This document shows, one piece after another, positions 4,667 to 61,272 of a stretch of DNA of 64,000 bases (position 1 is its first letter; each line of letters begins with the position of its first letter). The translations under genes and the position numbers were made by a program. Below the pieces are notes generated by a model. That model was not told the DNA's origin. It worked only from the letters and a program-made list of their open reading frames with translations, and ran no database searches. This stretch comes from an uncultured Gammaproteobacteria bacterium (GTDB lineage: Bacteria > Patescibacteriota > Patescibacteriia > Magasanikbacterales > GWA2-37-8): the NCBI GenBank assembly GCA_964355175.1, contig CAYHBZ010000002.1, positions 332,537-396,536 of the forward strand, given 5' to 3'.

Positions 4667-7600
4667 ATGAGAGAGGGATTTACTCCGTCGGTGGAAAGAC
4701 CGATGAACTATAAAAAAGAACGAAAGCAAGAATTGAGTGTTGCAGAGTTGTTATTTGATGAGATTAATACCGAAATTCAACGCTCTAACAAAGGTAAGGA
4801 AAAAGATAAAAAAATAAAATTTATTGATCATCCACGTTATGGCGAATGGAAAGCTTTGCGTGACGCCAATGTGGCTGAATCTTTACGGGCTGACTCTACC
4901 AAAAGAGAATCCGATTTTAGAAATGCGCACGAACAGGAGATGCAAGATTCTCGAGCGGTTTTTAATGATAGAGCAGATGAAAAGAATAGGGAATTAACGC
5001 TCCTAAGAGCGCAGGCTCAAGAAGCGGCCGCTTCTGAAGCAAAAAGGGCGGAAGTTTTGGCCGTAGAAGAAGCTAAAAGAAAGGACTTGGAGAGTTTGTC
5101 GATTGATAGATTTTATAGAGACGGTAAAAAAATTGATAGCGCTCATGCCAGCCAAAAAGACGCTGGTAATTTGCTGTTGGGTAAAAAAGATGCTGGATTA
5201 TCAGTGGCTGGTCGTTTGGTAGAAGATGGTTTTGAAGGTGAAGAGGCAAAAAGACAGATCAATAGTATTATCAAAGACATGGGTCAATTAAAAAATGTTT
5301 ATTCTGTTCAGATTAAGTCTTTGCAAGAAATGGGTTTGGTGGATAGAATTATGGGCAGACGCGCGGCTTTAGAAAAACAAATGGCTGAAACTCAGGCTGA
5401 TATCCTTTTGAAATCGGAGGCCCTCTTGAAAGAATTTAAAGTTTCTGGAAAAGTATTTGCTCAGCAAGAGATGATTGTGGAAAGATTGTGGGATTTGTCT
5501 AAAAAATTAGAAAATAAAGTGTCTGTTGGAGAGGCTGTGGTAGCGTTGACTGTTTTGGCAGCCATCCTGGCTGGTGGTGCTAGTGAAGTTGCTAAGAAAG
5601 TATCGGCAGCTGATGATTTTCGCGCTCCAGCGGTGGCGTCTTATGATACTTTCGGTGATTCCAATCTCGACCAAGATTCATTTACATCTGATTTGGTAGA
5701 GGGAAAAGTTAGTGGTTATAAGGTAAGCTCAGAAACTGTTTCTTCATCGGCTGAGTCTGAGAGTAAAGTAACTAAGGAATTATTCTCCTTAACCCCAGAA
5801 GAATCTGATAAAGTAAAAAGTTTTAAGGATTGGCGTCGAGCTATTCTTAATCCGGAATTTATTGGTAAAGAGAAAAAAGATGGATCTGTGCCTACAACTG
5901 AAAGAGGTCGTAATGTAGCTCCAGGGACTCAGTTGGAAATTTCAGTAGATGGTAATGTATTAATTGCCGGCGAAGTTGAAAAATATGGTAGTATTTGGGG
6001 TGTATTAGAAGAAAATAAAAATGAAATTAAAAAAGTTGCCAAAGAAAAAGGGTGGGGCAACTTAGATTTGCGTATTATTGAATCAGTTGATTCTAAAGAC
6101 GGCGAAAGTAAAATAAAAGGCAAAGTAGCTCATGATAAAGAGAAGGGTGATAGCAACAAATCCCGTAAAGACATAGCCAAAGTTGGTGCAGCTGATACTG
6201 GATCAGAGGATGAAAATCCGGCGCTAAAAGAGGCCGCCCGCCATTCTGCCAATGATCGACTTGGGGAAATTGGTGTCAGACATCAAATCGGCCATGATTA
6301 TCCTTCGCTAGATGGTTATCAAGGTGCAATTGATGAATTGAAAAAAATCAAAAATATTGATGCTAGTTTGGAAAATCCAGTCAAAGCGGAAATAAAACGA
6401 TTAGAAACAGCTAAAGAAGATTTAAAAAATAGATTGGTAAAAGCCAAAGGCGAAGCAGAAAAATATATCGAAAGTAAAGGCGTTAAGCATACAGTGGGAC
6501 TCGACTATAAAACTATTAAAGATTATGATCAGGCTATTGACGAATTAAGCCAGATTGAAGGCGGTATTGTTTTGCCGCCCATAGTGGATATGCAACAAAC
6601 AGATGATTCCAAGAGAATGTCTCAGATTAAAGATGGTGTCCGAGCAGAGAGAGAGCGTTTGGAAACAGCCAAGCAAAATTTAAGACTAAAACAGATCCAA
6701 GCGGGCATAGACAATGAGAGTTCGGTACCGGAAGCTGGGAAACCAGAAAAATTGGATTTTAAACCGTCTTTAAAAGTTTCCGATTTGATGTCAGATGCAG
6801 AGTTGAGTTTGGCGGCTAGTGGTGAAATGTATGGACGTAATTTAGTGAAAGCTCATAATTTGACTAGTTCAGTATTTGAATATTTGGGTGGAGAAGATCA
6901 ACATTTATTTGATTCTTTGTCTGAAAAAGATTTAAGAAAATTTTTGGGAATGGTTGAGGAAGCCAAAAGTTTATACAATCTTGTTTTAACTGTCAAAGAA
7001 GATGGTAAAATAAAGCCAAACCCAACTACAATAGAACAAGCCAAAAAAGGTCAAGAAATCGCTGGGAAATTGGCGATTGAGTTAGATGATGCTATTCCAA
7101 AAAATAGTGTGGACAAGGCGGTTGTTTCTGCTGGTCAGCGTCTAGAAATTTTATACAAAGAAACTGAATCTAGGACAGGAAATGTAGCTTTGTATGGGCC
7201 AGATGGAGCTTTGGATACACTACAAAAAGTCATGAAGAGTATAAAAACAAAAGGTAAGATCGGGAGTTCGGATCGTAAAATTTTAAAAAAAATAGAGAGT
7301 ACGGCTCATACTGTCTTGCATAGTGATAATAATCTTGAGCCGGATAAAAAAGCCGCCAAAGAAGTTTTGGCCATTTCTGTTATTTTGAAAGGGTCAATCT
7401 CTAAGAGGGATCAAAATCGTGTTGAGAAGGAAGAGTCAGCTGGTCTTGGAGTGCGCTATGAATTACCTAAGCCAGCAGATCAGAGAACCGACAAAGATCT
7501 AAATAAATTGTTGTCCAATAAAGTAAAAGATCAAATCAATCAAGCCTATGAATTGGCCGAAAAGCTGTCGGATGATAGTCCGTCGAGTGATGTAGCCTAT

Positions 7601-15843: not shown

Positions 15844-16118
15844 GGGCAGATACCAAAGTGGCTAACTGGGGCAGACTGTGAACAATTGCAGCTCTTAGAG
15901 GTAACTCTAGGATGAACTCTCTGGGATAACGGTGAAAGCTAATGGGGGTGCTAATACCGTGGGAACTTCGCAACGTGCGGAGAGCGCCGTAGAGACTAGA
16001 TACCAGAGTATCCCGATTCAGTTGGGATAAAGATATAGTCCATGCCGTAAGGAAACTTATGGATAAGTGAAATCTGCTGGCTCCGCCTTCGTAGGTTCGA
16101 ATCCTACTCTGCCCACCA
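15844..16118 (+). tRNA. tRNA-Tyr(GUA) split by a group I intron in the anticodon loop (exons 15844-15879 and 16070-16118, CCA encoded)
   Basis: The joined exons read GGGCAGA-UA-CCAA..UGGG-G-CAGAC-U-GUA-AA-UCUGC-UGGCUCCGCCUUC-GUAGGUUCGAAUCCUAC-UCUGCCC-A-CCA. This is a type II tRNA with a long variable arm. The anticodon stem-loop GCAGACUGUAAAUCUGC is identical to bacterial tRNA-Tyr. Confidence 0.75.
15880..16069 (+). other. group I self-splicing intron (IC3-like, ~190 nt) within tRNA-Tyr
   Basis: The conserved S element AAGAUAUAGUCC matches the group I consensus exactly at 16029-16041. The R-like element GUAGAGACUAGAUA at 15989-16002 supplies the P7 pairing GACUA/UAGUC. The 5' exon ends in U, which can pair with the internal guide GCAG near the intron start. 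The intron ends in G just before the 3' exon. Confidence 0.7.
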
Positions 16119-38265: not shown

Positions 38266-38447
38266 AAATAGAACATTCCTGCTCGGGAAGAACTATTATT
38301 TGAAGACCGGACTTGTTCTCGACTTAGTCGAGACTTTACCGTTGCGGCACAGTGGAGGAATTGACCTCACTTCCACAAATAATAGGTTAAATTGTATGTA
38401 TAAACTATCAGGGTTCTAAGGCACTGTCAAAGCGGGTGTGGATAAGT

Positions 38448-59196: not shown

Positions 59197-59224
59197 AATC
59201 CTCCAATAATTTGGGGGATTTTTT
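59197..59224 (+). terminator. rho-independent terminator
   Basis: AATCCTCCAA-TAAT-TTGGGGGATT plus T-run. Confidence 0.8.
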
Positions 59225-59318
59225 AATAGTGTAGTTCTGGCCGGCCCCCAACTACTTCAGCATTTGGACCTTGCGGTCCGTGTGCCTTTTCGTCGGGGGC
59301 CGGGTGGCAGGAACTTCT

Positions 59319-59588
59319 TCAGGCAGCGACGCTACGCATCTTGTCCGCGTGCAGGGTCTGGCTGCTAGAACGCAGCGAGCCGCTGATGTGCCGCAGGCCA
59401 GGCTTTTCGCCCAGACTCACGCAGAGCTCAGGACCCGACAGTACGCCCTTGAGCGCCAGGGTGAGTTGGTGCCCGCGTTCCATGTAGACCACGGTGAGGT
59501 GCTCGCCCCAGTCGGTGATGATCGTATGGCCACACTTGAGTTGGGGCCAGTTGTTCCGCGTGAGATCGCGGGCATTGAAGGTCGTCAT
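59319..59588 (-). CDS. orphan protein encoded in high-GC islet 4
   Basis: ~60% GC. Probable start at MTTFNARDL. The longer track ORF starts inside the promoter. TTGACA-17-TATAAG promoter at 59649-59677 on the minus strand. Confidence 0.4.
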   Translation of the reverse strand: MTTFNARDLTRNNWPQLKCGHTIITDWGEHLTVVYMERGHQLTLALKGVLSGPELCVSLGEKPGLRHISGSLRSSSQTLHADKMRSVAA

Positions 59589-59731
59589 TGTCGTGCCTTT
59601 GCTTGAGGTTGTTCTTGCCACACCATCCGGCTTTGGATGGATGTCATACTTATATACTAAAATAGCCATTTTGTCAATCTAGAAACAAAAAAATCTGTTC
59701 TTTTTAAACAGATTTATAAGTCGCTGATAAG

Positions 59732-59786
59732 CGGGTCGGACGGGACTCGAACCCGCAACTTTCCCGACTTAGTCGGGATGCTCTAA
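59732..59786 (-). other. 3' tRNA-like fragment: tRNA-Asp T-arm/acceptor plus a non-canonical anticodon arm (UCCCG-ACUAAGU-CGGGA)
   Basis: 31 nt are identical to the 3' end of the tRNA-Asp gene at 60613-60686. The anticodon arm is replaced. The fragment has no 5' acceptor or D-arm 5' half. Confidence 0.6.
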
Positions 59787-60560
59787 TCATTTTTTAGTTA
59801 GGTCTAATTTTTCGAAATAATTGGCTAGTCCTTTGCAATAATTTTCTACATCGTAAAATGGTAGTGGAAATTCGTAATCAAATAGTAGTTTTACCAAAGT
59901 ATCTGGAATAAATTTACCTTTTTTCTTTTTTGGTTCTCGTTTTAATTCCGGGTCGATTTCTTTTAATAGTGGGAAAATTTTTTTCGCGTAGTCTTCATAC
60001 CATAAGTTATCGAGTAAATCAGTATCTAAAGATTTTTTAGCACAATTAGCTATTTCTTTTATCAATCTGAGCCTGCTTGACTCAGCAAGCGCTGTCGAAT
60101 GGTTGTTGCATAAAATAGGAATAGGCAAACGACCAACTTTTTGCATACCGGATCCGGCGGGTTTAGTAGTTAAATAACCGTTCCAATGTTCGCTAACTTT
60201 ATTTCTAAAAAAATTAATTTCATAATAACTCGGTATATGTTTTTCTTTTTTTAAAACATCCCCAAGCTGATTAATTAGGCTGACTAATTGATAATAATCT
60301 AATGACACTTTAATTCCTTTGTCTTGCGATTCAATCATTTCTTGGGTAGTCATTTTAGTAGCACCAGATTTAGCATTCTTTGGCGAAGTTGTTATTGTTC
60401 GGGAATATGATATGTAAGCCACTCTTAAAATTCTTATGTGGTGTAGAACTTTACTTCCTAAAGGCATTAATTTACCGTAAGCTGGATTTCCTAAGGTAGA
60501 CTGATTTAAATCAGTAATCAACTTATCAAACGGTGATACTTTAAATGTTGGTGATTCCAT
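59787..60560 (-). CDS. hypothetical protein (257 aa) inside the repeat-flanked tRNA-Asp segment
   Basis: Its stop codon abuts the 3' tRNA fragment. No motif I recognise. ~30% GC. Confidence 0.45.
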   Translation of the reverse strand: MESPTFKVSPFDKLITDLNQSTLGNPAYGKLMPLGSKVLHHIRILRVAYISYSRTITTSPKNAKSGATKMTTQEMIESQDKGIKVSLDYYQLVSLINQLGDVLKKEKHIPSYYEINFFRNKVSEHWNGYLTTKPAGSGMQKVGRLPIPILCNNHSTALAESSRLRLIKEIANCAKKSLDTDLLDNLWYEDYAKKIFPLLKEIDPELKREPKKKKGKFIPDTLVKLLFDYEFPLPFYDVENYCKGLANYFEKLDLTKK

Positions 60561-60612
60561 ATTAAATTTAAATTAAAAAACTACCTTTCGGTAGTTTTTA
60601 TAAACCTCTCAG

Positions 60613-60686
60613 CGGGTCGGACGGGACTCGAACCCGCAACTTCTGCCGTGACAGGGCAGTGCTCTAACCAGTTGAACTACCGACCC
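60613..60686 (-). tRNA. tRNA-Asp(GUC)
   Basis: Reverse complement: GGGUCGG-UA-GUUCAACUGGUUAGAGC-A-CUGCC-CUGUCAC-GGCAG-AAGUU-GCGGGUUCGAGUCCCGU-CCGACCC-G. The T-arm and discriminator G match canonical bacterial tRNA-Asp. Confidence 0.85.
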
Positions 60687-60696
60687 GCTAAGGTGT

Positions 60697-60960
60697 CTAT
60701 ATTTTATTATAATTTTTAAAATACCAGACTATATACTTTCTATTTTTTGATTTTTTTAGTTTATTTTCCAATTTGGCTGATTCAGATCCGTTTTCACATT
60801 CAATCGTGCCTACGAGTTCCCAAGGTGAGCCTGTTCGAGTATAAATTTCCTCACCGTTGTTATGTTCTTTAAAGCGTCGTGCTATATCAATAGTTTTACC
60901 AATATAGTATTTATTGGTTTTTTTGCTAAAAAGCAAATAGACGCAATGTTTACCCTCCAT
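60697..60960 (-). CDS. GIY-YIG nuclease family protein (YhbQ/UPF0213-like)
   Basis: MEGKHCVYLLFSKKTNKYYIGKTIDIARRFKEHNNG carries the GIY..YIG..R..EH motif set. ~88 aa starting at the M that abuts the 5' tRNA-like fragment. The longer track ORF reads into that fragment. Confidence 0.7.
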   Translation of the reverse strand: MEGKHCVYLLFSKKTNKYYIGKTIDIARRFKEHNNGEEIYTRTGSPWELVGTIECENGSESAKLENKLKKSKNRKYIVWYFKNYNKI

Positions 60961-60973
60961 ATTATTATAGTAA

Positions 60974-61031
60974 CGAACCCGCAACTTTCCCGACTAAGTC
61001 GGGATGCTCTAACCAGTTGAACTACCGACCC
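60974..61031 (-). other. 5' tRNA-like fragment: tRNA-Asp acceptor/D-arm plus a non-canonical anticodon arm (UCCCG-ACUUAGU-CGGGA), truncated in the T-loop
   Basis: 26 nt are identical to the 5' part of tRNA-Asp. It shares ~43 nt with the fragment at 59732, which makes a direct repeat around the 1.2-kb segment. Confidence 0.6.
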
Positions 61032-61086
61032 AAATTTTACTTTTTACATTATAAACCAAAAAACGATTTTAGTCAATATTTTAAAG

Positions 61087-61112: not shown

Positions 61113-61272
61113 CGTACAAAAAATAAAAAAGGTCCTAGAAGTGTTCGGTATAAGCAATGAGTAAAGGAGGGGGTACTCACGCTCTACCAAACACTCTCAG
61201 GACCTTTTTGAATGTTTGTATATATATTATAACAATCTCATTTTGGACTGTCAAACGTTTTCTGTGGACAAC

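What the first reader, a model, noticed from the sequence alone, without database searches (positions are those of the whole stretch)
59732..61031. tRNA-Asp flanked by 5' and 3' tRNA-like fragments forming a ~43-bp direct repeat around a GIY-YIG nuclease gene and an orphan ORF
On the minus strand the order is: 5' tRNA-like fragment (61031-60974: Asp acceptor/D-arm plus arm UCCCG-ACUUAGU-CGGGA, cut in the T-loop), GIY-YIG nuclease (60960-60697, YhbQ-like motifs), intact tRNA-Asp(GUC) (60686-60613), a 257-aa protein of unknown function (60560-59787), and a 3' tRNA-like fragment (59786-59732: same alternative arm plus Asp T-arm/acceptor). The two fragments overlap by ~43 nt, CGAACCCGCAACTTTCCCGACT(TA/AA)GTCGGGATGCTCTAA. 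This looks like a target-site duplication or att pair, as if a 1.2-kb element had integrated into a tRNA gene. Joined, the fragments would make a tRNA whose body is tRNA-Asp but whose anticodon loop is ACUUAGU / ACUAAGU (anticodon UUA or UAA, with C33). That is non-canonical and possibly suppressor-like. Both genes abut the fragments with no spacer.
Basis: seen in the sequence. Interest (0 to 1): 0.75.

Follow-up and report, generated by a model that had tools for sequence, protein, structure and literature searches.

The report
Nuclease gene nested in tRNA copies
A tiny DNA-cutting enzyme gene sits inside a tRNA-Asp gene locus, bracketed by broken copies of that tRNA whose anticodon arm is replaced by one hairpin; the same design recurs in distant bacterial phyla, so it looks like an undescribed selfish or regulatory module rather than a one-off insertion or a suppressor tRNA.

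Summary
On the minus strand lie a promoter, a 5' tRNA fragment (61031-60974), an 87-aa GIY-YIG gene, an intact tRNA-Asp(GUC), an orphan 257-aa ORF and a 3' tRNA fragment (59786-59732). The fragments share tRNA nt 20-58 and differ only at the centre of a 17-nt palindrome.

No recombinase is nearby, and neither fragment regenerates a tRNA. The "anticodon" centre is A, T or G in relatives, and the arm folds as a 7-bp stem with a 3-nt loop. It is not a suppressor tRNA.

Comparative data change the picture. In 13 Magasanikbacteria lineages the same module sits downstream of rplT (promoter, hairpin-bearing tRNA-Asp fragment, small GIY-YIG, intact tRNA-Asp). Gene order, break points and copy number vary between them. 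Homologous nucleases in Portnoybacteria and Bacteroidota are flanked by truncated copies of their own neighbouring tRNA (Met, Lys, Pro), usually with a TCCCG(A)...(T)CGGGA stem in place of the anticodon stem. These copies are often in tandem arrays.

The best reading is a tRNA-resident UPF0213/Slx1-like nuclease cassette that promotes recombination among tRNA copies, analogous to phage SegB. The hairpin would be its cis element. The mechanism is inferred, not shown.

The parts
61048..61076 (-). Sigma-70-type promoter TTGACT-17-TATAAT. It drives the 5' tRNA-like fragment and probably the nuclease gene and tRNA-Asp as well.
   Evidence: 11 of 12 consensus positions. The same TTGACTAAA...TATAAT sequence lies upstream of the fragment in L005, L009, L012 and L022.
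60974..61031 (-). 5' tRNA-like fragment (5'*). It consists of tRNA-Asp nt 1-26, the 17-nt palindromic arm, and nt 44-58, and it breaks off in the T loop after GGTTCG.
   Evidence: The flanks are 100% identical to the resident tRNA-Asp.
60988..61004 (.). Palindrome TCCCGACT-T-AGTCGGGA (read on the tRNA strand) in place of the anticodon arm.
   Evidence: (I3). It folds as a 7-bp stem with a 3-nt loop, -10.9 kcal/mol.
60697..60960 (-). 87-aa stand-alone GIY-YIG nuclease gene of the UPF0213/YhbQ/Slx1-like type.
   Evidence: Pfam PF01541, E=2.9e-15. The catalytic residues Y8, Y19-I-G21, R29, E32/H33, E65 and N73 are invariant in 13 homologues. The closest solved structures are 1zg2 and 1ywl (UPF0213), then SLX1 and UvrC.
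60612..60686 (-). Intact tRNA-Asp(GUC).
   Evidence: ARAGORN; Rfam tRNA, 66.8 bits.
60575..60595 (-). Intrinsic-terminator-like hairpin ACTACC-GAAA-GGTAGT followed by a T run, after tRNA-Asp.
   Evidence: Read directly from the sequence. The scanner missed it because the stem has fewer than 3 G-C pairs.
59787..60560 (-). Orphan 257-aa ORF, a lineage-specific passenger. Its stop codon TGA abuts the 3' fragment.
   Evidence: Only itself among 5.8 billion proteins. No Pfam, NCBIfam, PHROG or PADLOC family. Absent from all related loci. The chance of 257 open codons at this composition is about 7e-10. The AlphaFold model is uninformative, pLDDT 36.
59732..59786 (-). 3' tRNA-like fragment (3'*). 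It consists of tRNA-Asp nt 20-26, the palindromic arm, and nt 44-73.
   Evidence: The same start at nt 20 (TTAGAGCA) is seen in L007, L011, L012 and L014.
59762..59778 (.). Second copy of the palindrome, with central A on the tRNA strand.
59686..59714 (-). Terminator-like hairpin AAATCTGTT...AACAGATTT followed by a T run, after the 3' fragment.
   Evidence: Read directly from the sequence.

Best explanation
The locus is one instance of a recurrent, cross-phylum module. A minimal GIY-YIG nuclease gene (UPF0213/Slx1-like, catalytic domain only) is lodged inside the transcription unit of a tRNA gene. It is bracketed by truncated direct copies of that same tRNA. In those copies the anticodon stem has been replaced by a module-specific stem-loop, TCCCG(A)-loop-(T)CGGGA.

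Shown:
- the architecture
- its conservation downstream of rplT across Magasanikbacteria
- its recurrence next to other tRNAs in Portnoybacteria and Bacteroidota
- intact catalytic residues in the nuclease
- variation in order, break points and copy number between related genomes

Inferred: the nuclease makes breaks in or next to tRNA-gene DNA. Repair by recombination between the tRNA copies duplicates, reshuffles and spreads the segment that carries the nuclease gene. This would be homing with co-conversion, or segmental amplification as demonstrated for the phage GIY-YIG enzyme SegB.

More speculative: the conserved stem-loop is the cis element that the nuclease recognises, as an extruded DNA hairpin or as RNA, either for cleavage or for autoregulation.

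In this window the nuclease gene has slipped between the old tRNA promoter and a complete tRNA-Asp. The 257-aa ORF is a lineage-specific passenger that entered the variable segment before the 3' fragment.
For: 1. Synteny. Thirteen Magasanikbacteria lineages carry the promoter, the hairpin-bearing 5' fragment and intact tRNA-Asp, with a small GIY-YIG gene that is decayed to a remnant in L015. In the loci that reach the neighbouring genes the module lies downstream of infC-rpmI-rplT, with L20 identity 52-97%.

2. Conservation of the arm. Its 16 non-central positions are identical in the six lineages that were retrieved through the protein alone. Meanwhile the nuclease drops to about 55-70% identity and the intergenic DNA is unalignable. 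The tRNA-derived flanks track the local tRNA-Asp variant: GGATCGG in L018, and a 1-nt D-loop deletion in L016.

3. Generality. A profile search finds 287 homologues and 4,635 representative clusters at E<=1e-10. Of 12 lineages reached through the protein alone, all have a tRNA gene within a few hundred bases, and 11 have truncated copies of that tRNA with a hairpin in place of the anticodon arm:
   - Asp (six lineages)
   - Met (L026-28)
   - Lys (L024)
   - Pro (L023, L029, L032)

4. The stem varies by compensatory changes (TCCCGC/GCGGGA, TTCCGC/GCGGAA), and loops are 3-8 nt long. This argues for a hairpin rather than a rigid duplex operator.

5. Dynamics:
   - L026 has three units and L028 one, with an identical nuclease protein.
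   - L024 has an 11-copy 102-bp array plus three nuclease units of 375 bp.
   - L023 has four units of 322 bp.
   - L011 has two units and L033 three.
   - L015 retains only a remnant of the nuclease gene.

6. Break points cluster in the T arm or T loop (nt 51-63) and after G18G19 (nt 20). SegB cleaves tRNA genes at a motif, RAWTSGAAC, that I read as the reverse complement of the T-loop sequence, and drives recombination-dependent amplification of a tRNA plus segB segment (PMC13096335; PMC2330249).

7. The closest solved relatives after the UPF0213 proteins are SLX1 structure-specific nucleases.
Against: - There are no biochemical data, so cleavage and its target are unknown.
- The protein has no DNA-binding domain, unlike the Seg and I-TevI enzymes.
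- No clean nuclease-free 'empty' allele was recovered.
- The module is stably syntenic over deep divergence and its catalytic residues are under purifying selection. That fits a domesticated or host-beneficial function as well as it fits a selfish one.
- An intact tRNA-Asp next to the nuclease would itself be a target if the enzyme cuts tRNA genes.
- If the enzyme instead cuts the hairpin in its own locus, classical homing logic does not apply.
- No relatives were found on sequenced phages or plasmids, so horizontal mobility is inferred only from the cross-phylum distribution.
- Loci L012-L022 were ascertained through the palindrome itself.
Confidence: 0.55

Rival explanations
1. Classical site-specific integration. 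A 1.2-kb circular element carrying an internal tRNA-like att segment integrated into a hybrid tRNA gene. The 39-43-bp repeat is the attL/attR pair.
For: - The direct repeat brackets the segment.
- The promoter sits on one side and a terminator on the other.
- An uninterrupted hybrid gene exists in contig L010.
- Anticodon and T arms are the usual crossover sites of tRNA-targeting integrases (my own knowledge).
- The geometry equals Campbell integration through an internal gene fragment.
Against: - No integrase or recombinase lies in the segment or within about 10 kb.
- Classical integration leaves one complete and one partial tRNA (PMC9897764). Here both hybrid copies are truncated.
- Break points differ among relatives, and the enclosed content differs: only tRNA-Asp in L012, tRNA-Asp plus nuclease in L009.
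- The arrangement is ancient and syntenic, not a recent insertion.
- L010 is a single short MEGAHIT contig that ends inside the repeat, and it would lack tRNA-Asp at this locus.
Confidence: 0.08
2. An RNA-protein system. The hairpin-bearing pseudo-tRNAs are functional RNAs, such as decoys, a type III antitoxin-like inhibitor or an autoregulatory handle. They bind the small nuclease through the conserved stem, and the arrays supply the RNA partner.
For: - Tandem arrays of hairpin-bearing units lie upstream of the nuclease gene, separated from it by a tRNA and a terminator. Examples are three units in L033 and an 11-copy array in L024 in which each unit carries the tRNA's upstream region. This recalls ToxI/ToxN architecture.
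- The stem sequence is conserved across phyla while the nuclease falls to about 40% identity.
- The hairpin always lies close to an end of the nuclease ORF: 11-38 nt upstream of the start, or 0-26 nt after the stop. In L011 and L023 the hairpin loop supplies the stop codon.
- The transcribed strand mostly reads CTAAG.
- The loops of the Lys and Met copies keep the local anticodon, TTT and CAT.
Against: - GIY-YIG enzymes are DNases, and no RNA-inhibited member is known (my own knowledge).
- Most copies, including both in the window, are truncated and cannot form a tRNA shape.
- The body of the pseudo-tRNA always copies the adjacent tRNA. That is what DNA recombination predicts, and it is not required for an RNA partner.
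- There are no expression data.
- The window has single fragments, not an array.
Confidence: 0.14
3. Passive decay. tRNA-Asp was tandemly duplicated and the extra copies decayed. A REP- or MITE-like palindrome that spreads in these genomes happened to overwrite the anticodon arm. The nuclease gene is merely a neighbour.
For: - The same palindrome occurs free-standing in Magasanikbacteria: after smpB in L007, as a terminator stem in L014, and in frame inside the PPS gene in L014.
- Other small GC-rich hairpins are inserted in decaying tRNA copies in L007, L015, L017 and L029.
- L017 has a hairpin-bearing tRNA-Val fragment with no nuclease gene.
Against: - The stem co-occurs with this nuclease clade across phyla and across tRNA identities, in 11 of 12 protein-ascertained lineages.
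- The replacement is exact: arm for arm, 16-20 nt in place of 17.
- The palindrome is rare elsewhere. The 64-kb window has two exact copies, both in the fragments.
- No other tRNA in the window has fragments.
Confidence: 0.13
4. A functional split or recoding tRNA. The two pieces are joined, at the DNA or RNA level, into a tRNA with an Asp body and a UUA or UAA anticodon that acts as a suppressor or as a Leu decoder.
For: ARAGORN calls the uninterrupted forms in L010 and L012 tRNA-Leu(taa). The L010 form passes the Rfam tRNA threshold at 45.2 bits. The reconstituted sequence folds as a cloverleaf.
Against: - The arm is a 7-bp stem with a 3-nt loop, and position 33 is C.
- The central base is A, T or G in relatives.
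- The score is about 22 bits below that of the true tRNA-Asp, and the L012 copy fails the threshold.
- The pieces overlap by 39 nt, which does not fit trans-splicing. Bacteria lack the archaeal splicing system (my own knowledge).
- Most genomes have only a 5' piece.
Confidence: 0.02

Closest known systems
Phage T4/T6 SegB, a free-standing GIY-YIG homing endonuclease in the tRNA gene cluster (PMC2330249; PMC13096335)
   Same: - The catalytic fold is GIY-YIG.
- The gene sits among tRNA genes.
- SegB cuts inside tRNA genes; its RAWTSGAAC motif looks to me like the T-loop sequence on the opposite strand. Its breaks drive recombination-dependent tandem amplification of a segment holding a tRNA and a (truncated) copy of its own gene. 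Here, break points lie in the T arm, and there are tandem units and truncated nuclease copies (L026).
   Different: - SegB is a phage protein with a C-terminal extension, whose loss abolished toxicity in the T6 study. The protein here is an 87-aa catalytic domain of the UPF0213/Slx1 branch.
- The protein here is chromosomal in CPR bacteria and Bacteroidota.
- No hairpin-substituted pseudo-tRNAs are described for SegB.
- Activity here is untested.
UPF0213 / YhbQ-type stand-alone GIY-YIG proteins (PDB 1zg2, 1ywl) and SLX1
   Same: These are the best sequence matches among solved structures (E=1.4e-8 and 2.2e-7 for the UPF0213 proteins; about 3e-3 for SLX1). They share the size, the motif set, and the HN-G-E..YT...PW signature.
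   Different: No biological role or genomic association with tRNA genes is established for UPF0213 proteins, to my knowledge. SLX1 needs the partner SLX4, and no such partner is seen here.
Integrative elements that target tRNA genes and leave partial tRNA copies (attL/attR) (PMC9897764)
   Same: Direct repeats of tRNA sequence bracket inserted DNA, and a tRNA gene is the landing site.
   Different: - There is no integrase.
- Two truncated copies plus one complete copy are present, instead of one complete and one partial.
- The anticodon arm is replaced by a foreign hairpin.
- Break points vary.
- The insert is only 0.15-1.2 kb.
Free-standing homing endonuclease genes in fungal mitochondria that sit next to partial duplications of the host gene (for example atp6 and cob C-terminal duplications; PMC6279837)
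   Same: The endonuclease ORFs lie between a functional gene copy and a truncated duplicate of the same gene.
   Different: Those hosts are protein-coding genes in organelles, there is no signature hairpin, and the endonuclease families and lengths differ.
Type III toxin-antitoxin loci (ToxIN)
   Same: In some relatives (L033, L024) a tandem array of short structured repeats is followed by a terminator and a small nuclease gene.
   Different: The toxin families are endoRNases, not GIY-YIG. Here the repeats are copies of the neighbouring tRNA. The window itself has no array.

Membership tests
GIY-YIG nuclease superfamily (PF01541) | GIY and YIG motifs, with the conserved Arg, Glu and Asn of the active site. 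| tested here: met
   Pfam E=2.9e-15 over residues 4-76. Y8, Y19-I-G21, R29, E65 and N73 are invariant in 13 homologues.
UPF0213/YhbQ-type stand-alone GIY-YIG | A protein of about 85-105 aa consisting of the catalytic domain only, with its best similarity to UPF0213 proteins. | tested here: met
   87 aa. The best solved matches are 1zg2 (E=1.4e-8) and 1ywl (E=2.2e-7). Homologues are 76-126 aa.
Free-standing homing endonuclease (Seg/Mob/I-TevI type) | A separate DNA-binding domain (NUMOD or HTH) linked to the GIY-YIG domain. | tested here: not met
   Only the catalytic domain is present. The NCBIfam group I intron endonuclease model matches residues 4-36 only, at 26 bits against a cut-off of 56.
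Free-standing homing endonuclease (Seg/Mob/I-TevI type) | Presence/absence polymorphism, with cleavage of the endonuclease-free allele. | tested here: inconclusive
   Order, copy number and decay vary (L015 remnant; L026 versus L028; L009 versus L010). No clean empty allele was retrieved, and cleavage cannot be tested with these tools.
Integrative element with a tRNA att site | It encodes, or lies next to, a tyrosine or serine recombinase. | tested here: not met
   No recombinase domain among the called genes within about 10 kb. The 257-aa ORF has no family match.
Integrative element with a tRNA att site | Integration regenerates one complete tRNA and leaves one partial copy, with a fixed core. 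| tested here: not met
   Both hybrid copies are truncated (nt 1-58 and nt 20-74). Break points differ among relatives. Compare PMC9897764.
Functional elongator or suppressor tRNA | An intact gene with a 7-nt anticodon loop, U33 and a conserved anticodon. | tested here: not met
   The gene is split in the window. The arm is a 7-bp stem with a 3-nt loop and has C33. The centre is A, T or G. Full-length forms score 45 bits against 67 bits, or fail the threshold.
Split tRNA genes (Nanoarchaeum type) | Non-overlapping halves with complementary leader sequences, joined by the archaeal splicing machinery. | tested here: not met
   The pieces overlap by 39 nt. The organism is a bacterium, Magasanikbacteria. 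No complementary leaders are visible in the sequence.
REP/RAYT or MITE-like palindromic repeats | Many dispersed copies, with an associated HUH transposase. | tested here: inconclusive
   A few free-standing copies occur in relatives. The 64-kb window has only two exact copies, and no transposase was seen. The whole genome was not available.
Type III toxin-antitoxin | A tandem RNA repeat array, a terminator, and a toxin endoRNase that processes the repeats. | tested here: not met
   The window has no array. The protein is a GIY-YIG DNase-type fold. Arrays exist only in some relatives.

The most novel reading that the evidence does not exclude
A previously unrecognised class of tRNA-gene-resident element (or RNA-protein system) exists in CPR bacteria and Bacteroidota. 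In it a minimal UPF0213/Slx1-type GIY-YIG nuclease works with a signature stem-loop, TCCCG(A)...(T)CGGGA, that it installs or maintains in place of the anticodon stem of decoy copies of the host tRNA. The hairpin would be the enzyme's specific substrate or partner. This would give the first biological role to at least one clade of the large, function-unknown UPF0213/YhbQ family.
Probability: 0.3. Interest if true: 0.85.

Novelty: new variant of a known kind. Interest (0 to 1): 0.66.

Why it matters
- Stand-alone UPF0213/YhbQ-type GIY-YIG proteins are very widespread. This clade alone has 4,635 representative clusters at E<=1e-10. To my knowledge the family has no assigned function.
- The comparative pattern gives a concrete, testable hypothesis: a nuclease tied to tRNA genes and to one specific stem-loop.
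- It shows that tRNA loci in reduced CPR genomes and in Bacteroidota can be remodelled by a very small gene. The outcome is truncated tRNA copies, tandem arrays and pseudo-tRNAs that tRNA finders call 'tRNA-Leu(taa)'. This matters for annotation and for claims of suppressor tRNAs or recoding.
- It extends the SegB paradigm (a nuclease that cuts tRNA genes and amplifies them) from phages to bacterial chromosomes.
- If the hairpin is the recognition element, the pair could serve as a compact structure- or sequence-specific nuclease tool.

Tried and rejected
- **Rfam, fragments and arrays.** Searches at gathering and E-value thresholds matched no family other than tRNA.
- **257-aa ORF.** Pfam, NCBIfam, PHROG, PADLOC and a 5.8-billion-protein search gave nothing. 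The AlphaFold single-sequence model has pLDDT 36, so no fold search was run. A remnant of a nuclease 3' end fused to the ORF was sought by BLAST and was not significant.
- **Phage or plasmid carriage.** An exact-pattern scan of viral contigs, a protein-pattern scan of viral contigs, and tblastn against phage and plasmid collections found no close relatives.
- **Palindrome derived from the local T stem or acceptor stem, or a hairpin-opening footprint.** Rejected. The same stem occurs with tRNAs that have unrelated acceptor and T stems, and it is not an inverted copy of its flanks.
- **Duplication starting at the mature tRNA 5' end (an RNA-mediated origin).** Rejected. The array units in L024 and L033 include the upstream leader and promoter DNA.
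- **Homology between the GC-rich islands of the window and L022.** None was detected.
- **Literature.** Searches for a prior description of GIY-YIG genes with hairpin-bearing or truncated tRNA copies found none. The library is limited to open-access papers.
- **First representative-library job.** It was repeated with alignment A2.
Full report
**What is in the window**

Read on the minus strand, the region contains the following parts in order.

| Part | Coordinates | Notes |
|---|---|---|
| Promoter TTGACT-17-TATAAT | 61076-61048 | 11 of 12 consensus positions |
| 5' tRNA-like fragment (5'*) | 61031-60974 | see below |
| Spacer | 13 nt | TTACTATAATAAT |
| 87-aa ORF | 60960-60697 | Pfam GIY-YIG, E=2.9e-15 |
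| tRNA-Asp(GUC) | 60686-60612 | ARAGORN; Rfam 66.8 bits; followed by a terminator-like hairpin |
| 257-aa ORF | 60560-59787 | |
| 3' tRNA-like fragment (3'*) | 59786-59732 | followed by its own terminator-like hairpin |

BLAST against the tRNA-Asp and a reconstructed hybrid defines the fragments. The 5' fragment is tRNA nt 1-58 and the 3' fragment is nt 20-74. Outside nt 27-43 both are 100% identical to the resident tRNA-Asp.

At nt 27-43 the anticodon arm CTGCC-CTGTCAC-GGCAG is replaced by the 17-nt palindrome TCCCGACT-N-AGTCGGGA. N is T in the 5' fragment and A in the 3' fragment. The shared segment is 39 nt with one mismatch. The palindrome is expected 0.01 times by chance in the window.

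Three further assemblies show the identical arrangement. None of the other four tRNA genes in the window has partial copies, and there is no second GIY-YIG gene.

**Why it is not a suppressor tRNA and not a classical att pair**

The reconstituted hybrid folds as a cloverleaf, but its 'anticodon arm' is a 7-bp stem with a 3-nt loop, and position 33 is C. The central base is A, T or G in relatives. Uninterrupted copies in relatives score 45 bits against 67 bits for the true tRNA, or fail the Rfam threshold.

No recombinase lies within about 10 kb. [quoted passage not shown] Here both hybrid pieces are truncated.

**Relatives**

The 257-aa protein has no homologue among 5.8 billion proteins. The nuclease does have homologues. 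Their contigs, together with exact-pattern scans of genome and metagenome collections, gave 13 distinct lineages. Those with taxonomy are Candidatus Magasanikbacteria.

In the loci that include the neighbouring genes the module lies downstream of infC-rpmI-rplT, with L20 identity 52-97%. All lineages carry the same promoter-proximal 5' fragment with the same palindrome, followed by a small GIY-YIG gene and an intact tRNA-Asp. The arrangement is old, but it is not fixed.

- **Order.** The nuclease precedes tRNA-Asp in the window, L007/13, L014, L016, L018, L019 and L022. It follows tRNA-Asp in L004-6, L009, L011, L012 and L033.
- **Break points.** The 5' fragment ends anywhere between nt 51 and nt 63.
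- **3' fragment.** It is present in the window, L009, L011 (twice) and L012. It is degenerate in L007 and L014, and absent in L005 and L022.
- **Minimal content.** In L012 only tRNA-Asp lies between the two fragments.
- **Decay.** L015 retains only a C-terminal remnant of the nuclease gene.
- **Uninterrupted form.** L010 carries the uninterrupted hybrid and no tRNA-Asp, while the near-identical L009 has the 5' fragment plus tRNA-Asp. L010 is one short contig that ends in the repeat, so I treat it as suggestive only.

The 257-aa ORF and the GC-rich island next to it are unique to the window genome. The chance of 257 open codons at this composition is about 7e-10, so the ORF is probably a real lineage-specific passenger gene. 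Its function could not be inferred.

**The pattern generalises beyond this lineage and beyond tRNA-Asp**

A profile of 13 nuclease sequences has invariant catalytic residues. It finds 287 homologues with the word-index search, and 4,635 representative clusters at E<=1e-10 in the exhaustive library. They come from CPR groups and from Bacteroidota and other phyla. I examined the contexts below.

| Locus | Lineage | Arrangement |
|---|---|---|
| L026-28 | Portnoybacteria | Promoter, then units of [tRNA-Met nt 1 to about 50 with the arm TCCCGATCATAATCGGGA, then nuclease], then intact tRNA-Met. L026 has three units and L028 one, with an identical protein. |
| L024 | Algoriphagus | An 11-copy, 102-bp array of tRNA-Lys 5' fragments with the arm TCCCGATTTTATCGGGA. 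Then tRNA-Lys, then three 375-bp units of [nuclease plus tRNA-Lys-like copy with the arm TCCCGATTTTAATCGGGA]. |
| L023 | Cyclobacteriaceae | tRNA-Pro followed by four 322-bp units of [nuclease plus tRNA-Pro 3' fragment with a hairpin]. |
| L029 | a 3.8-Mb metagenome contig | tRNA-Pro 3' fragments with the arm TCCCGCTGAGAGCGGGA or TTCCGCTTAGGAGCGGAA. |
| L032 | Balneola | tRNA-Pro(GGG) 3' fragment with the arm TCCCGACAAGCTTGTCGGGA. |
| L033 | Patescibacteria | Three 5' fragments, then tRNA-Asp, then the nuclease gene. |
| L025 | Flavobacteriaceae | The nuclease gene lies next to tRNA-His and no fragment is present. |
| L017 | contig whose gene set looks Bacteroidota-like to me | A tRNA-Val 5' fragment carries exactly the Magasanikbacteria arm plus the AAGTT that follows it. 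It is followed by an intact tRNA-Val, and no nuclease gene is present. |

Of 12 lineages reached through the protein alone, 12 have a tRNA gene within a few hundred bases. Eleven of these have truncated copies of that same tRNA with a hairpin replacing the anticodon arm.

Four features of these copies stand out.

- The outer stem TCCCG(A)/(T)CGGGA is conserved in most lineages.
- Where the stem changes, it changes by compensatory substitutions.
- Loops vary from 3 to 8 nt. In the Lys and Met copies they retain the local anticodon (TTT and CAT).
- The tRNA-derived flanks follow the local tRNA, for example GGATCGG in L018 and a D-loop deletion in L016.

The nuclease ORF is packed tightly against these copies. 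Its stop codon is often supplied by U8-A9-G10, by the D loop or by the hairpin loop of the downstream copy.

**What the protein is**

The closest solved structures are the function-unknown UPF0213 proteins 1zg2 and 1ywl (E about 1e-8 to 1e-7), followed by SLX1 structure-specific nucleases and UvrC. The protein has no DNA-binding domain. Matches to homing-endonuclease models cover only the N-terminal GIY-YIG motifs. No close relative is found on sequenced phages or plasmids, or in viral contigs.

**Mechanism, with the level of support marked**

*Shown:* a conserved, catalytically intact small nuclease gene is embedded among direct repeats of a tRNA gene. These repeats differ in copy number, order and break points between close relatives. 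A specific stem-loop replaces the anticodon stem in the non-functional copies.

*Inferred:* the nuclease promotes breaks and recombination among the tRNA copies. This explains the tandem units, the truncated nuclease copies (L026), the flanks that stay identical to the local tRNA, and the spread to new tRNA genes through conserved D-arm and T-arm microhomology. L017 fits this, because its left junction lies in AGAGCA.

A close experimental precedent is SegB of phages T4 and T6 (PMC13096335; PMC2330249).
- It cuts inside tRNA genes at the motif RAWTSGAAC, which I read as the reverse complement of the tRNA T-loop sequence.
- Its breaks drive recombination-dependent amplification of a segment carrying a tRNA and a truncated segB.
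- Here the 5' fragments end in the T arm or T loop. In the window the end is after GGTTCG.
- Most 3' fragments begin right after G18G19, at TTAGAGCA, in the window, L007, L011, L012 and L014. The analogous position is used in L023 and L032.

*Speculative:* the stem-loop is the nuclease's cis element. The argument is that a specific 5-6-bp stem is kept across phyla while the protein falls to about 40% identity. Loop length is free, which fits recognition of a hairpin (extruded DNA or RNA) and not a duplex operator. The nuclease is the only conserved protein in the module. Whether recognition leads to cleavage, to protection of the decoy copies or to autoregulation cannot be decided here.

**Weak points**

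- There is no biochemistry.
- No clean nuclease-free allele was found.
- Part of the Magasanikbacteria sample was ascertained through the palindrome.
- The long-term synteny with purifying selection also fits a domesticated function.
- If the enzyme cuts tRNA genes, the adjacent intact tRNA-Asp is a self-target. If it cuts its own hairpin, classical homing logic does not apply.

**Rivals**

| Rival | Confidence |
|---|---|
| RNA-protein system (decoy or type III antitoxin-like) | 0.14 |
| Passive decay plus invasion by a REP-like palindrome | 0.13 |
| Site-specific integration | 0.08 |
| Functional split or suppressor tRNA | 0.02 |

**Comparison with known systems and novelty**

The module works most like SegB-type tRNA-associated GIY-YIG endonucleases, and like free-standing endonuclease genes that sit beside partial duplicates of their host gene (PMC6279837). 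It is not a member of the Seg or I-TevI families, because it lacks their DNA-binding domain. By sequence it belongs to the UPF0213/YhbQ branch.

I found no description of hairpin-substituted truncated tRNA copies associated with this branch. That search covers open-access papers only. I rate the finding a new variant of a known kind, with a real chance (about 0.3) that it is a distinct, undescribed element or RNA-protein system.

**Verdict**

Interest is 0.66.

Noticed in passing
window 61115-61220 (minus), promoter 61226-61254: A hairpin small RNA of about 85 nt has its own perfect sigma-70-type promoter (TTGACA-17-TATAAT with TG) and a T run. It is conserved downstream of rplT in the Magasanikbacteria loci that include that region. 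RNAalifold on 8 lineages gives 33 pairs, 19 of them with compensatory changes. The 11-nt apical loop CCCCCUCCUUU is invariant and resembles an anti-Shine-Dalgarno sequence. There is no Rfam match.
   Followed up: partly
window 59200-59670: A GC-rich island (60-65% GC in a genome of about 35% GC) has its own AT-type promoter and a 90-116-aa ORF with no family match. L022 has an unrelated GC-rich island (a 111-aa ORF with GC3 of 0.94) at the same position downstream of tRNA-Asp. The segment between the tRNA module and the PEP-synthase gene therefore looks like an insertion hot spot for foreign DNA.
   Followed up: partly
L014 2353-2371: The palindrome ATCCCGACTAAGTCGGGAT lies in frame inside the PEP-utilising enzyme gene, where it encodes ..SSRLSRD... 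This recalls in-frame palindromic element insertions.
   Followed up: no
L007 3272-3288; L014 6451-6467: Free-standing copies of the same palindrome occur outside tRNA contexts. One lies just after smpB and upstream of tmRNA. The other is followed by a T run and acts as the terminator stem of a short promoter-driven transcript.
   Followed up: no
window 38317-38333: The variant TCTCGACTAAGTCGAGA, the same palindrome with a compensatory C-G to T-A change, forms a hairpin inside the AdoCbl riboswitch match at 38268-38401.
   Followed up: no
L007 5761-5850; L015 around 7040-7080; L017 140-240; L029 2317-2334: Other short GC-rich palindromic hairpins (for example CCCGCCTAGGCGGG, CCATATCATGCGATATGG and TTCCGCTGCGAAGCGGAA) are inserted into decaying tRNA copies or replace their D loops and T arms. 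Some process in these genomes seems to seed hairpins into non-functional tRNA DNA.
   Followed up: no
L024 842-2519: Algoriphagus carries an 11-copy tandem array of 102-bp units at 96% identity. Each unit holds the upstream region of tRNA-Lys and a hairpin-bearing tRNA-Lys 5' fragment. The array is interrupted by real tRNA-Lys, tRNA-Pro and tRNA-Arg genes.
   Followed up: partly
window 15850-16062 (+): There is a group I catalytic intron match (Rfam RF00028, 50.6 bits, just above the gathering score) between the tRNA-Thr pair and tRNA-Trp.
   Followed up: no
proteins P0122, P0123, P0124, P0128: Some predicted family members are 166-214 aa long with two GIY-YIG stretches, and many others have 20-70-aa N-terminal extensions. 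I have not checked these, but they may be gene calls that read through tandem units or tRNA-like fragments.
   Followed up: no
L009 2222-2295: The tRNA-Asp of this relative has a 6-nt anticodon loop (CTGCC-TGTCAC-GGCAG), and ARAGORN reports it as 'tRNA-???' with anticodon gtca. This is either a sequencing or assembly error, or a damaged tRNA-Asp next to the nuclease gene.
   Followed up: no
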